A stretch of DNA of 24,209 nucleotides from an uncultured Holosporaceae bacterium (lineage in GTDB: Bacteria; Pseudomonadota; Alphaproteobacteria; CAISOG01), in NCBI GenBank assembly GCA_903887035.1, contig CAISOG010000074.1, positions 1 through 24,209 on the forward strand, in the 5' to 3' direction. Positions 15,990 to 21,113 of this stretch are shown in pieces. The notes under the pieces were generated by a model. That model had not been told where the DNA came from and searched no databases. It saw nothing but the letters and a program-made list of their open reading frames with translations. The first letter of the stretch is position 1, and each line of letters starts with the position of its first letter. Made by a program: the position numbers and the translations under genes.

Positions 15990-17402
15990 CTAAATTTTCT
16001 TAAGCATGCCAAAGGCACCGGCCGCCCCCATTTTTCCCTTGGAAATAGCCTCCTCAGCCATCTCCTTACCAATATCAACAGTGAAAGAACCGCTAACATA
16101 TTGACCTGCCCAATCGTCGACGCGCCGTGCAAACATAATCAGCACGATTCCCGCGGTCAGCATGATCCAATAGCCGGGGGCGGCGAAAGAATTGCTGTTA
16201 CCCTGACCGCTTAGGGGGCCCGCGATAATGTCGGTGACCACCGCGCCGCCATCCGTGGGGGCGCTGGTGCCAGGTTTGCTGCCCAAACTTTGGGTGAATC
16301 CAACGCTAAGCATGGCAATGCTGATGGCGATTAGGGCGTTGATCATGATAAAGCCAATCGCCGAGTGAATCAGGGCGCTGATACAAATTTTTAAGGGTGC
16401 CCGCCCAATGGGCAGGGCATAGGCGGCAATGGCCAGCGGGGCAATCACGGCAACAAACAGCCATCGGAATAAATAGGTGATCATAAACAATCCAACCAGC
16501 AGGGCGCCCAATCCATAGATTAAGGTCATGACAAAACCAGCCAAAAGCCAGTCCCAACCTTTTGGTGGCAGAGTCCATTGAATTTTTTGCATGGAGGAAA
16601 TGCCCGCAACAATCCCCACCCCAACCGCACGCTGAAGCGCATAAAATTGACAGTTTAGGGCGTTTTTGACATTGGCTTTTTTCTCATCCTTCGTGCTGCC
16701 ATCAAAACGGATGTTGCCGCATTCCAACACTTGGCCTTCGGGGCCCACCACCGCCTCCGTCGTTGTGCCAGAGCCCGATTTGACGGTGCGCAGGGGTTTG
16801 CGCAGCGGGTTGAATTGGTCATAGGGAGCCTGCAACACAATCATCGGATCTGATCCGCCAAAAACAGCCTCTAACATCGCATGGCCGCCGCGCATCCCGA
16901 CCGAGATGGCGGGGTTAAAGAAATAGTCGTTGAAAAAATTAAAGTTGCCCAAGGCCGTCAGTACCAGCAGGGTGATGGCCAGCCTGGCCGCGATTTTGTT
17001 GGCCATCCCCCCGACGCTGTCCAGCGCGCCAAAGGGCATCAACAGCTTGCCCGCTTGCAACAACACCCACAACGCAATGATAATGGCAATCAGTCGGCGC
17101 ACATTGCCGCCCAGAAAGTCAAACATGGCCTGACCCATTTCATAGGCCACATCGACCATCATCGCGCTGATCGGGCAAATCCAACAGCTGTACATCATCA
17201 GGTTGTACATATCGGCGGGATTCGCCGCCCCACTGTTGGTGCCTGGCGTGTTGTTGGGGCCGGTAGAACCCTGCGCCAGGGCGGCATGAGGATCGCTGCC
17301 CAACAACAGCATCAACAACAGCACCATCAGGCCAAAACGGATCGATTTGACCCGCAGCCATGATAGACGAAAACATTGGTGGATTGCTGTGGTCATGATC
17401 AT
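15990..17402 (-). CDS. VirB6/TrbL-like polytopic membrane protein, paralog A (CWICP)
   Basis: Signal peptide ending ALA-Q, CWICP, KLLMPFG, several hydrophobic helices, IAPLAIAAYALPIGR. ATG 17402 lies one base after the paralog B stop. The CDS is secure; the VirB6 family call is motif-level only. Confidence 0.65.
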   Translation of the reverse strand: MIMTTAIHQCFRLSWLRVKSIRFGLMVLLLMLLLGSDPHAALAQGSTGPNNTPGTNSGAANPADMYNLMMYSCWICPISAMMVDVAYEMGQAMFDFLGGNVRRLIAIIIALWVLLQAGKLLMPFGALDSVGGMANKIAARLAITLLVLTALGNFNFFNDYFFNPAISVGMRGGHAMLEAVFGGSDPMIVLQAPYDQFNPLRKPLRTVKSGSGTTTEAVVGPEGQVLECGNIRFDGSTKDEKKANVKNALNCQFYALQRAVGVGIVAGISSMQKIQWTLPPKGWDWLLAGFVMTLIYGLGALLVGLFMITYLFRWLFVAVIAPLAIAAYALPIGRAPLKICISALIHSAIGFIMINALIAISIAMLSVGFTQSLGSKPGTSAPTDGGAVVTDIIAGPLSGQGNSNSFAAPGYWIMLTAGIVLIMFARRVDDWAGQYVSGSFTVDIGKEMAEEAISKGKMGAAGAFGMLKKI

Positions 17403-17403
17403 T

Positions 17404-19032: not shown

Positions 19033-21113
19033 TACGATGCCCTTGTCCGCTGTTGCCGAACCGATTTTTCGGTTTTGTTCCACGCATGCTGCATCGGGCT
19101 GCCCAACAAGCCGCCCAGATGTTTGGTTTTACGCCCACTAGGATCAGTGGTTTCATAGCGGTGAATAACGGTGCGCCCCGCGGTGCTGGCCACCTTTTGC
19201 CCGACCATCATGGCGCCCGTTTTGGCAAGGCCACCCGCCTGGGCGCTAAGCCCCATTGCCATTGAATCCATCCCCCGACCACCAATCAGATAGCCCGCAA
19301 TGCCAGCGGCTTTACCCAACATTTGGATGCCCAGCACCGCCACCGCCATCAGCACCCAAAAATACGGTTTGGTTATCCGAATCAAATCCTGAATCGCCTT
19401 TTTGCCATCATTGCTGTCAACCTGCTTAATCAGCTCAGACGCGTTGTAAACATTGCCAACCTTGTCCAACCCTGGAACAGCCTTAACAACATTGGTTAGC
19501 ATATTGTCGGTCATCGCAATCACAAAGGCGACCACCACCCCCAGGATCAGCAGGGTCATCATGGATTGGGCGACCGTGCGCACCCCTTTTTCAAAGGCCT
19601 TGCGGGTTTTGGGATATATGGCCGATGCCACCAAAAACGGACTGATCATCATCACAATGCCCAGCTGGATCACGGCATCAATCATATAGATGGGCAGTAG
19701 GATAAGCAGCAGGCCAAAGGCCAACATTATCAAAATCGACCCAATGACAACGTCCAGGTTCATTAACAGATACCACATCTGGTTTTTGCTTAGGACAACA
19801 AAATCCGCAACCAATCCAAAACGCGCCTTTGTTTCGCCCGTAAAGACCGTTGCGGAGCTTTTGAAGGCCTGAAAGCCCAGCATGGGCAGCACGCCCAGGG
19901 ACTTTTGCATCCTGTCCAGCTGGCAACTCATGGCCTTACTGACCACACTGGGGTTATCGTTGATGGATCCGGTTTTGCCTTGCAGCGCCCGCTGTCCCGC
20001 GATGGTAGAGGGGCAGTCGGTAGCGCTGCCCATCAAATCGGGCGATTGTTTGTTAATAATTCTATCCTGCACCTGCTGCTGAATCCCGCTGCCGTAATCC
20101 ATCAAAAAGGACATGACGGGGCCATAACCATAATCCCAAACAACATTCATATGGCTAAGCGTGGTTAGCACCAACAGGGTCAGCCCCAATCGCGATACAA
20201 CAGCATTGCCAATCTTCTTGGCGCCATCGGCGGGACCAAAAGGCAACAACAGCTTAATCGCCTCCAGCAGCAGCCATACCGCCAAGGCCAAGGCCAAAAT
20301 CTTTCTTAGGGCGGGCGCCAAAATCTCAAACATGGCGTTGGCGTACTCAACGCTGGTGTCAAACACCACCTCAAACAGCGGGCACAGCCAACAGGCGGTC
20401 ATGCCAGGCAGATAGGATGAAACAGGGATATAGCCATTGGCGACGGCGATCATATCGCTGATCATGGTGCCAAGGTAATTAAGCCCTTGCCCCAAAGAGT
20501 TGCACATGTAACCACTAACTTTTTGAACCCAGTAAGCTTTATCACCAGGACCCCAAGCATCTACCATTTTTTGTATTAGGGCTTTTGTTTGCGGACTATT
20601 CTTGTCGCAAATATTTGGGGTATTCACGATATCATCCACAATACCCCTTTCGCATAATCGCCCCACACCAGCGATAAGATATTCCGTGGTGCTGGGGGAA
20701 GTTTGCGTGGATAGCCAAACACCGCCCCCAATAGACACTGACCCAACTGGCTTCGTGGGATTGGCTGAAGCGCCTAAGGATTGTGCCAAGGCGGCGCCGT
20801 TAAGACTTGCAGTGCCTAAACAGCCTGCAGCTAGGCCATTTCTGTAATTGTCCTTAAAATACCCTTCCTGAAAGGGGCCACAGTCCCATCTGCTTGGATT
20901 GGTGCATTTGCGGCAATTGATATCGCTGCCGCACTCTTGCCCATTAATGGCTAACAGTGCCTTCCCAATATTTGGGTGAAGACAATTAAGGCCAAAACCA
21001 CCAGCACAGCTGTGCAATGGCGGAATGCTCGCATGCGCGCGTGTCGGCTGCGCCAGCAGGATCGCCAGCATGACAGCCGCCATCGCAATGCCCCTACGCC
21101 ACAAACCCTGCAC
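19032..21113 (-). CDS. VirB6/TrbL-like polytopic membrane protein with Cys-rich N-terminal domain, paralog C (CWLCP)
   Basis: Signal peptide ending AHA-S, ~210 aa domain with 10 Cys, CWLCP, KLLLPFG, PIYMIDAVIQ...ISPFLVASAIYPKTRKAFEK. Start uncertain: GTG 21227 (ORF limit), GTG 21113 (preferred, keeps the basic n-region) or ATG 21083. Confidence 0.7.
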   Translation of the reverse strand: MQGLWRRGIAMAAVMLAILLAQPTRAHASIPPLHSCAGGFGLNCLHPNIGKALLAINGQECGSDINCRKCTNPSRWDCGPFQEGYFKDNYRNGLAAGCLGTASLNGAALAQSLGASANPTKPVGSVSIGGGVWLSTQTSPSTTEYLIAGVGRLCERGIVDDIVNTPNICDKNSPQTKALIQKMVDAWGPGDKAYWVQKVSGYMCNSLGQGLNYLGTMISDMIAVANGYIPVSSYLPGMTACWLCPLFEVVFDTSVEYANAMFEILAPALRKILALALAVWLLLEAIKLLLPFGPADGAKKIGNAVVSRLGLTLLVLTTLSHMNVVWDYGYGPVMSFLMDYGSGIQQQVQDRIINKQSPDLMGSATDCPSTIAGQRALQGKTGSINDNPSVVSKAMSCQLDRMQKSLGVLPMLGFQAFKSSATVFTGETKARFGLVADFVVLSKNQMWYLLMNLDVVIGSILIMLAFGLLLILLPIYMIDAVIQLGIVMMISPFLVASAIYPKTRKAFEKGVRTVAQSMMTLLILGVVVAFVIAMTDNMLTNVVKAVPGLDKVGNVYNASELIKQVDSNDGKKAIQDLIRITKPYFWVLMAVAVLGIQMLGKAAGIAGYLIGGRGMDSMAMGLSAQAGGLAKTGAMMVGQKVASTAGRTVIHRYETTDPSGRKTKHLGGLLGSPMQHAWNKTEKSVRQQRTRAS

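What the first reader, a model, noticed from the sequence alone, without database searches (positions are those of the whole stretch)
17172..20393. Invariant CWxCP (CxxC) motif at the membrane-proximal start of all three paralogs
Seen: CWICP (17172-17186), CWACP (18694-18708) and CWLCP (20379-20393) are retained although the surrounding sequence is highly diverged. Paralogs A and C also have a second Cys pair in the loop (LEC...NCQ; TDC...SCQ); B lacks both, consistent with a co-varying disulfide. Established: CxxC serves as a thiol-disulfide redox or metal site. I do not know it as a canonical VirB6 feature. Inference: a redox- or metal-gated element, or an inter-subunit disulfide, defining a distinct subfamily.
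Basis: partly seen in the sequence, partly recalled or inferred. Interest (0 to 1): 0.68.

Follow-up and report, generated by a model that had tools for sequence, protein, structure and literature searches.

The report
Conserved periplasmic CxxC on VirB6 paralogs
Three neighbouring genes for VirB6, the inner-membrane base subunit of type IV secretion machines, share a Cys-x-x-Cys pair that proves almost invariant across a large, unannotated VirB6 subfamily of small-genome Alphaproteobacteria, and it is most likely a disulfide that caps the first helix on the periplasmic side.

Summary
CWICP, CWACP and CWLCP lie exactly at the stated coordinates in three translationally coupled minus-strand VirB6/TrbL paralogs. 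Two further paralogs on another contig carry CWLCN and CWSCS, so the constant unit is C-W-x-C and the Pro is not part of it.

The pair is a family feature. Of 144 full-length 50%-identity cluster representatives found with a profile, 140 have both Cys at fixed spacing. Trp follows in 57% and Pro in 32%. Classical P-type TrbL begins at the same helix with no Cys there.

Signal peptides, M23 peptidase fusions, the 5-TM VirB6 topology and a confident AlphaFold model (best PDB match R388 TrwI/VirB6) place the motif in the periplasm. It sits at the N-cap of helix alpha1, about 26 residues before TM1.

All other periplasmic Cys occur in even numbers in 99 of 110 representatives. The CxxC is therefore a self-contained pair, and the loop pair that B lacks is a separate co-varying disulfide.

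Best reading, about 50%: an intrachain helix-capping disulfide. Redox-switch, metal and inter-subunit readings are not excluded.

I found no description of it in the papers searched. This scan had already noted the same motif on other genomes (gut Alphaproteobacteria).

The parts
19032..21227 (-). VirB6/TrbL paralog C. The ORF is 731 codons from the first GTG. The likely start is GTG 21113 or ATG 21083, ahead of a signal peptide ending AHA.
   Evidence: Pfam TrbL E=1.5e-8; candidate starts; profile match 5.5e-154.
17404..19032 (-). VirB6/TrbL paralog B. Its likely ATG at 19032 overlaps the stop codon of C by one base (TAATG).
   Evidence: Pfam TrbL E=3.9e-11; starts. AlphaFold model of residues 113-490: pLDDT 88, pTM 0.85. 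Best PDB matches are TrwI/VirB6 chains of R388: E=1e-4, probability 1.00, target TM 0.60.
15990..17402 (-). VirB6-like paralog A. Its likely ATG at 17402 lies one base after the stop codon of B.
   Evidence: No Pfam hit, but it aligns with B and C over the whole core and matches the paralog profile at 4.7e-154.
17172..17186 (-). CWICP of A; Cys codons at 17184-17186 and 17175-17177.
18694..18708 (-). CWACP of B; Cys codons at 18706-18708 and 18697-18699. In the model the first Cys is in the turn after a short helix and the second Cys is the first residue of helix 17-35.
20379..20393 (-). CWLCP of C; Cys codons at 20391-20393 and 20382-20384.
16650..16721 (-). Cys pair of A in the large periplasmic loop (LEC ... 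NCQ).
   Evidence: family-wide parity
19923..20015 (-). Cys pair of C in the large periplasmic loop (TDC ... SCQ).
18754..18756 (-). Single Cys of B, 16 residues upstream of the CxxC. Its likely partner is the single Cys at 17830-17832 in the loop before the last TM helix.
   Evidence: The pairing is inferred from the family pattern: an odd Cys count in the N-extension goes with an odd count in another periplasmic loop.
20502..21008 (-). N-terminal extension of C with 10 Cys, between the signal peptide and the CxxC.
   Evidence: The even count fits an oxidised periplasmic domain.

Best explanation
The three genes encode paralogous VirB6 subunits of a chromosomal type IV secretion system whose other genes are scattered across the genome. 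After signal-peptide cleavage, the N-terminus of each protein stays in the periplasm. The two cysteines sit there at the N-cap of alpha1. In R388 TrwI, alpha1 is the helix that enters the inner membrane and is the proposed VirB2 pilin recruitment site. In the oxidising periplasm the two thiols are joined into a local intrachain disulfide, a four-residue ring carrying a hydrophobic Trp or Phe. This ring fixes the start of alpha1 and the hinge to the variable N-terminal extension. It is independent of the second, dispensable disulfide in the large periplasmic loop. What is shown: family membership, conservation, periplasmic side, helix-cap position and independence from the other cysteines. What is inferred: that the pair is oxidised, and what the bond does.
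For: VirB6 identity rests on Pfam TrbL hits for B and C and profile alignment of all five paralogs. A profile hit to TrwI gave E=0.0034, and the only significant Foldseek hits are TrwI/VirB6 chains. VirB4, VirB8, VirB10 and VirD4 lie on other contigs. Both Cys are present in 140 of 144 full-length representatives, always two residues apart. They are the second most conserved columns of the profile, in an alignment with 12% mean column identity. In a sample chosen with Pfam, not by the motif, 28 of 33 VirB6 ORFs from small-genome arrays had it. So did 8 of 8 in family f38. When the motif is lost, both Cys are lost together in all 4 representatives that lack it. The periplasmic side is supported by several results. 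120 of 140 representatives have an N-terminal hydrophobic signal region. An M23 peptidoglycan peptidase lies N-terminal to the motif in paralog D and in the loop before the last TM helix in relatives. Both positions are periplasmic under the 5-TM, N-out VirB6 topology (Jakubowski 2004, as cited in PMC10018362) and under the TrwI structure, where only alpha1 and alpha2 cross the membrane (PMC9259494). In the model, Cys14 is in a turn, Cys17 is the first residue of helix 17-35, and TM1 is 43-68. Periplasmic Cys other than the CxxC are even in number in 99 of 110 representatives. Odd counts in the N-extension are matched by odd counts in another loop. So the CxxC needs no outside partner, and these proteins look fully oxidised. 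The genome encodes DsbB (2e-37) and a DsbA-like protein.
Against: A two-residue loop adds little stability, yet this pair (97%) is more conserved than the ordinary loop disulfide (about 77%). CxxC at a helix N-terminus is the typical geometry of reactive, not inert, disulfides. No coordinates were available, so the S-S distance in the model was not measured. Parity cannot distinguish an oxidised pair from two free or metal-bound thiols. DsbB was not found in 10 of the 14 families that carry such arrays. VKOR was not found in the 4 of those genomes that were tested. DsbA-like proteins were present in all 5 tested.
Confidence: 0.5

Rival explanations
1. The pair is a redox-active or switchable disulfide. 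It cycles between thiol and disulfide to gate alpha1 (pilin recruitment or channel opening), or it exchanges disulfides with another secretion-system subunit or substrate. Non-thioredoxin periplasmic CxxC proteins such as CcmH work in this way.
For: The geometry is helix N-cap CxxC. Spacing is strict in 140 of 140 representatives. Conservation exceeds that of the structural loop disulfide. The motif lies on the helix that is the proposed VirB2 recruitment site in R388 (PMC9259494). Other T4SS components of this genome are Cys-rich.
Against: There is no thioredoxin fold; the protein is all-helical. The two inner residues are variable apart from a hydrophobic first one, unlike tuned catalytic CxxC motifs. 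No partner has been identified.
Confidence: 0.2
2. The pair is a metal site. The two thiolates bind Cu(I), Zn or a similar ion, either alone (two-coordinate, MerP or HMA style) or shared with a neighbouring subunit.
For: CxxC is a common metal knuckle, small residues precede the first Cys, and spacing is strict.
Against: No third or fourth conserved ligand exists; no other Cys or His column is conserved. The site is periplasmic, and the other Cys of the same proteins appear oxidised. There is no ferredoxin-like HMA fold. A five-fold VirB6 ring cannot pair CxxC motifs two by two.
Confidence: 0.1
3. The pair forms an inter-subunit disulfide. The cysteines bond to the same motif of a neighbouring VirB6 in the ring, covalently linking paralogs.
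For: VirB6 is a pentamer in R388 (PMC9259494), and this genome has five paralogs that all carry the motif.
Against: Single-copy CxxC VirB6 occur in ordinary virB operons, and some arrays contain paralogs without the motif. The position of the N-cap relative to the ring axis could not be examined. Two adjacent Cys would normally close on each other first.
Confidence: 0.08
4. The conserved Cys are a relic with no present role, or an artefact of how the family was collected.
For: The profile used for retrieval contained the two Cys.
Against: The two columns contribute only a few bits to scores of about 100-500 bits. A motif-blind Pfam survey gives the same picture. The Cys persist across branches of 0.5-1.9 substitutions per site.
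Confidence: 0.03

Closest known systems
TrwI/VirB6 of plasmid R388 (PDB 7O3V, 8RT9, 8RTD) and A. tumefaciens VirB6 (Pfam PF04610)
   Same: The fold is the same: the only significant Foldseek hits are TrwI chains, and the profile hit to TrwI has E=0.0034. The order of helices is the same. The N-terminus is periplasmic, and alpha1 leads into the membrane.
   Different: TrwI has no signal peptide and no N-terminal extension. A weak, non-significant alignment puts its residue 9 at profile position 25. On that alignment the sequence starts at about the place where the CxxC would be, so the motif region is simply missing.
P-type TrbL of conjugative plasmids and ICEs (strong PF04610 matches)
   Same: It belongs to the same family and has the same amphipathic first helix followed by TM1.
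   Different: About 23 examples from Alphaproteobacteria start directly at the helix (M..GVID.F...YIDSGFGLL) and have no Cys there. Most have no Cys at all. tblastn with B found nothing in 72,556 plasmids.
Rickettsiales vir homolog (rvh) system with four or five tandem RvhB6 paralogs (Gillespie 2009, PMC2653234)
   Same: There are several very divergent VirB6 paralogs with large extensions. The T4SS genes are scattered in islets across a reduced alphaproteobacterial genome.
   Different: That paper reports conservation only in the TM and cytoplasmic region around an essential Trp and mentions no N-terminal Cys motif. No named Rickettsiales sequence could be examined here. Here the array is not next to virB3 or virB4.
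DsbB and VKOR (analogy only)
   Same: They are membrane proteins with a CxxC near the periplasmic membrane face and a second Cys pair in a periplasmic loop.
   Different: There is no sequence or fold relation and no evidence for a quinone site. Paralog B and about 13% of the family lack the loop pair.

Membership tests
VirB6/TrbL (PF04610) | Match to the family profile above its curated cut-off | tested here: met
   B scores 43.6 bits and C 35.2 bits against a cut-off of 25.9. A has no Pfam hit but aligns with B and C over the whole core.
VirB6/TrbL (PF04610) | Fold of solved VirB6 (TrwI) | tested here: met
   The AlphaFold model has pLDDT 88. The top nine Foldseek hits are all TrwI chains, best E=1e-4, probability 1.00, target TM 0.60.
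VirB6/TrbL (PF04610) | Polytopic inner-membrane protein with a periplasmic N-terminus and a large periplasmic region | tested here: inconclusive
   Signal peptides, positions of M23 fusions, even Cys counts and the helix pattern all agree. No experimental topology is available.
VirB6/TrbL (PF04610) | Works with the other T4SS subunits | tested here: inconclusive
   VirB4 (C64), VirB8 (C42), and VirB10 and VirD4 (C113) are present elsewhere in the genome. VirB9 was not found in this 80% complete assembly. No T4SS gene lies in the window.
VirB6/TrbL (PF04610) | Pentameric stalk base | not testable with these tools
   No multimer prediction or model coordinates were available.
Thioredoxin-fold thiol-disulfide oxidoreductases | Thioredoxin fold carrying the CxxC | tested here: not met
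   The model is entirely helical, and there is no thioredoxin-family Pfam hit.
c-type cytochrome haem attachment site | CxxCH | tested here: not met
   His follows the second Cys in 1 of 140 representatives. In the window the residue is Pro.
HMA/MerP-type metal-binding domain | Ferredoxin-like beta-alpha-beta-beta-alpha-beta fold with GMxCxxC | tested here: not met
   There are no strands in the model, and no conserved Met or Gly precedes the motif.
DsbB/VKOR | Homology to the four-helix quinone-dependent oxidases | tested here: not met
   There is no Pfam hit to PF02600 or PF07884 in A, B or C. The genome has its own DsbB elsewhere.

The most novel reading that the evidence does not exclude
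The CxxC, together with the Cys pair in the periplasmic loop, forms a built-in thiol-disulfide relay in the base of the secretion machine. It would be analogous to DsbB, VKOR or CcmH and would oxidise or isomerise pilins, machine subunits or substrates. This would explain why most lineages with such VirB6 arrays keep DsbA-like proteins although no DsbB or VKOR was found in them. A related possibility is that five CxxC-bearing paralogs build a hetero-pentameric, redox-gated ring.
Probability: 0.05. Interest if true: 0.85.

Novelty: new variant of a known kind. Interest (0 to 1): 0.5.

Why it matters
VirB6 is the least understood core subunit of type IV secretion systems. The literature read here describes its N-terminal periplasmic part as unconserved. 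A pair of cysteines kept in about 97% of a subfamily that has otherwise diverged to 12% column identity marks a site under strong constraint. That site is at the entrance of the helix proposed to recruit pilin. It gives a simple, testable handle (Cys-to-Ser mutants, thiol trapping) on how the multi-paralog VirB6 machines of reduced, host- or partner-dependent Alphaproteobacteria are built. It also gives a diagnostic signature for annotating hundreds of proteins now labelled hypothetical. The members that sit in ordinary virB operons of larger genomes offer a route to experiments in cultivable bacteria.

Tried and rejected
- **Haem c site (CxxCH):** rejected, because His follows the motif in 1 of 140 representatives.
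- **Thioredoxin-like or HMA domain:** rejected by the all-helical model.
- **NCBIfam:** no hit for any paralog.
- **tblastn of B against plasmids:** no match.
- **Five-paralog profile against PDB:** found only chance SMR hits. The 133-sequence profile was needed to reach TrwI.
- **The search for related loci with the five-paralog alignment:** failed because no conserved stretch was available.
- **Organism names:** attempts through cluster look-ups and a second homology search gave only 'MAG: Alphaproteobacteria / Holosporaceae / Holosporales / Dongiaceae bacterium'. The one genome-contig scan showed that the C-F-F-C-P-L-F subgroup comes from gut MAGs: Azospirillum sp. 51_20, CAG:495 and Ca. 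Scatocola. Whether Rickettsia, Wolbachia, Anaplasma or Ehrlichia VirB6 carry the motif therefore stays untested.
- **Variant disulfide in family f137:** I tested whether another VirB6 array family (f137: virB4 followed by three or four virB6, no CxxC, four of eight with C-x14-24-C before alpha1) has the same capping Cys with a distant partner. hhalign confirms homology (probability 96%) but does not align the N-terminal part, and extrapolation puts that Cys about five residues off. This is suggestive only.
- **Protein Atlas:** gave only generic TrbL and TraJ clusters.
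Full report
**What is in the window**

The minus strand between 15990 and 21227 carries three consecutive ORFs. They translate to polytopic membrane proteins.
- B and C match Pfam TrbL/VirB6 above the curated cut-off. A matches nothing in Pfam, and none of the three matches NCBIfam.
- The likely ATG of B overlaps the stop codon of C (TAATG). The likely ATG of A lies one base after the stop codon of B. The three are therefore one translationally coupled unit, C-B-A.
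- The neighbours are housekeeping genes: EF-P, DUF192, endonuclease III, PNPase, cytochrome bc1, primase and others.
- The window is contig C74 of a 1.33 Mb, 80% complete assembly.
- VirB4 lies on C64, VirB8 on C42, and VirB10 and VirD4 on C113. VirB9 was not found.
- Two more VirB6 paralogs lie on C204. The genome thus has a scattered type IV secretion system with five VirB6 copies.
- A near relative of paralog B is labelled 'MAG: type IV secretion system protein [Holosporaceae bacterium]' in NCBI.

**The observation**

CWICP, CWACP and CWLCP are at exactly the stated coordinates. The C204 paralogs read CWLCN and CWSCS.
- In the alignment of the five cores (24-27% identity), 17 columns are invariant, among them C, W and C.
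- A, C, D and E each have two Cys in the large loop. B has none there.
- The three other species of the genus keep all five paralogs with C-W-x-C.

**Is it a family feature?**

A profile of the five cores was run against 1.84 billion cluster representatives. It found 1465 proteins at E<=1e-3 and 740 at E<=1e-10. I analysed the 150 best.
- 140 have Cys at both positions, always two residues apart.
- 6 are N-terminally truncated fragments.
- 4 are full-length and lack both Cys.
- The next residue is Trp in 79, Phe in 26 and otherwise mostly aliphatic.
- The residue after the second Cys is Pro in only 45 and His in 1.
- The two Cys columns are the second most conserved of the profile, after one Pro in a TM helix.
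- In a 133-sequence alignment with 12% mean column identity they are the only invariant columns. That set was selected for having them.
- A tree shows terminal branches of 0.5-1.9 substitutions per site. A, B and C group together with weak support, and D and E sit elsewhere.

The retrieval profile contained the Cys, so I repeated the question with a motif-blind sample. Pfam TrbL was searched in 301 alphaproteobacterial genomes, and 55 had a match. I fetched and read 60 regions.
- About 23 strong P-type TrbL ORFs start directly with the first helix (M..GVID.F...YIDSGFGLL) and have no Cys there.
- Other mid-range VirB6 also lack the motif.
- 28 of 33 ORFs from multi-copy arrays in small genomes (1.2-2 Mb) have the CxxC.
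- Further families gave 8 of 8, 3 of 5, 2 of 3 and 1 of 2.
- Three single-copy VirB6 in large genomes have the CxxC at residues 3-31 without a signal peptide, and one has CGPGC. Two of these sit in ordinary virB4-x-virB6-virB8-virB9 operons, and one lies next to a relaxase.
- One array family (f137) lacks CxxC. Four of its eight paralogs have C-x14-24-C just before the first helix. It is homologous by hhalign (probability 96%), but the N-terminal parts did not align.
- In a 401-genome sample of the phylum, only 8 genomes matched at E<=1e-8. Seven are in the same class.
- Names recovered were only MAG labels. One subgroup is from gut Alphaproteobacteria.

**Where the motif sits**

- All three window proteins have an N-terminal signal peptide. 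120 of 140 representatives have a hydrophobic N-terminal segment before the motif, and the median distance from the start to the motif is 92 residues.
- Paralog D carries an M23 peptidoglycan peptidase N-terminal to the motif. Seven relatives carry one in the loop before the last TM helix. Both positions are periplasmic under the 5-TM, N-out model of A. tumefaciens VirB6 (as cited in PMC10018362) and under the R388 structure. In R388 only alpha1 and alpha2 of TrwI cross the membrane, and alpha1 is the proposed VirB2 recruitment helix (PMC9259494).
- The AlphaFold model of B residues 113-490 is confident (pLDDT 88, pTM 0.85). It has a short helix at 4-12, Cys14 in the following turn, Cys17 as the first residue of helix 17-35, and TM1 at 43-68.
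- Its only significant PDB neighbours are TrwI/VirB6 chains.
- The 133-sequence profile also hits TrwI (E=0.0034). A weak, non-significant N-terminal alignment puts TrwI residue 9 at profile position 25, so TrwI begins about where the motif would be.

**What the other cysteines say**

- Among CxxC-bearing representatives the large loop has 2 Cys in 110, none in 18 and one in only 5. This is the pattern of a disulfide lost as a pair.
- I counted all predicted periplasmic Cys other than the CxxC: N-extension, first helix, large loop and last loop. The total is even in 99 of 110.
- Where the N-extension has an odd number, another loop is odd too. B fits this pattern with one Cys 16 residues upstream of the motif and one in the last loop.
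- The proteins therefore look fully oxidised, and the CxxC needs no outside partner.
- The genome has DsbB and a DsbA-like protein.

**Mechanism**

The most economical reading is an intrachain disulfide that caps alpha1 and fixes its junction with the variable extension (confidence about 0.5). Three points count against a purely structural role.
- The stabilising effect of a two-residue loop is small.
- This pair is more conserved than the loop disulfide.
- A CxxC at a helix N-terminus is the typical geometry of a reactive disulfide.

A redox switch or exchange site (0.2), a metal site (0.1) and an inter-subunit bond (0.08) remain open. Nothing computed here separates an oxidised pair from free or metal-bound thiols.

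**An unexplained observation**

- DsbB was found in 262 of 301 sampled Alphaproteobacteria. This tally includes one unpublished genome, G042, and no other claim rests on it.
- DsbB was not found in 10 of the 14 families that carry CxxC-VirB6 arrays.
- VKOR was not found in four genomes tested, while DsbA-like proteins were in all five tested.
- This association is confounded by genome reduction and lifestyle. It still weakens the simple 'DsbA/DsbB makes it' account for the family. It also leaves room for a speculative built-in relay, because CxxC plus a loop pair resembles the DsbB/VKOR layout.

**Comparison with what is known, and novelty**

- The proteins are members of the VirB6/TrbL family by profile and by fold. 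The CxxC marks a large subfamily within it.
- In the papers searched I found disulfides described for VirB7-VirB9, for F-type Tra proteins and for Dsb helpers of T4SS. I found no VirB6 CxxC.
- Gillespie 2009 states that VirB6 conservation is limited to the TM and cytoplasmic region.
- Earlier notes of this scan describe the same motif in VirB6 arrays of other genomes and reach the same 'large undescribed subfamily' conclusion. I reached it independently before reading them, so they count as agreement and not as evidence.
- One of those notes says the family is never next to other secretion genes. The single-copy members in virB operons found here show that this does not hold for the whole subfamily.

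Noticed in passing
G000 contig C204: 6216-9875 (-) and 9667-11412 (-): Two further VirB6 paralogs lie here. D (1220-codon frame) has an M23 peptidase domain N-terminal to CWLCN and a long Pro/Gly/Ser-rich C-terminal half. E runs off the contig and has CWSCS.
   Followed up: partly
G000 contig C64: 5609-6607 (-), 2123-4570 (-), 511-2223 (-): This is a VirB4 islet. Upstream of VirB4 is a 333-aa protein made of three similar two-TM repeats, possibly a triplicated VirB2-like pilin. Downstream is a 571-aa Cys-rich exported protein. I did not run these against family libraries.
   Followed up: no
Sample of 301 alphaproteobacterial genomes: DsbB was not found in 10 of the 14 families carrying CxxC-VirB6 arrays, against 13% of all sampled genomes. 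VKOR was not found in the four tested, although DsbA-like proteins are present. What reoxidises DsbA there is unclear.
   Followed up: partly
L076, L078, L080 (G113, G089, G129): Single-copy CxxC-type VirB6 without a signal peptide occur here, with the motif at residues 3-31. They sit inside virB4-x-virB6-virB8-virB9 operons or next to a relaxase, in 2.5-5.7 Mb genomes. These are candidates for experiments.
   Followed up: partly
L081-L084 (G139, G290): This is another VirB6 array family (virB4 followed by three or four virB6) without CxxC. Four of its eight paralogs have two Cys 14-24 residues apart just before the first helix.
   Followed up: partly
window 21333-21860 (+): The ORF upstream of paralog C, on the opposite strand, reads like a lipoprotein with a glycine-zipper segment, reminiscent of the 17-kDa antigen family. 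This is from reading the sequence only. The 100-codon minus-strand ORF at 21244-21546 looks spurious (Arg/Pro-rich, no Pfam hit).
   Followed up: no
window 17402-17406 and 19030-19034: The stop and start codons of C/B overlap (TAATG). Those of B/A are one base apart. This indicates translational coupling of the three paralogs.
   Followed up: yes
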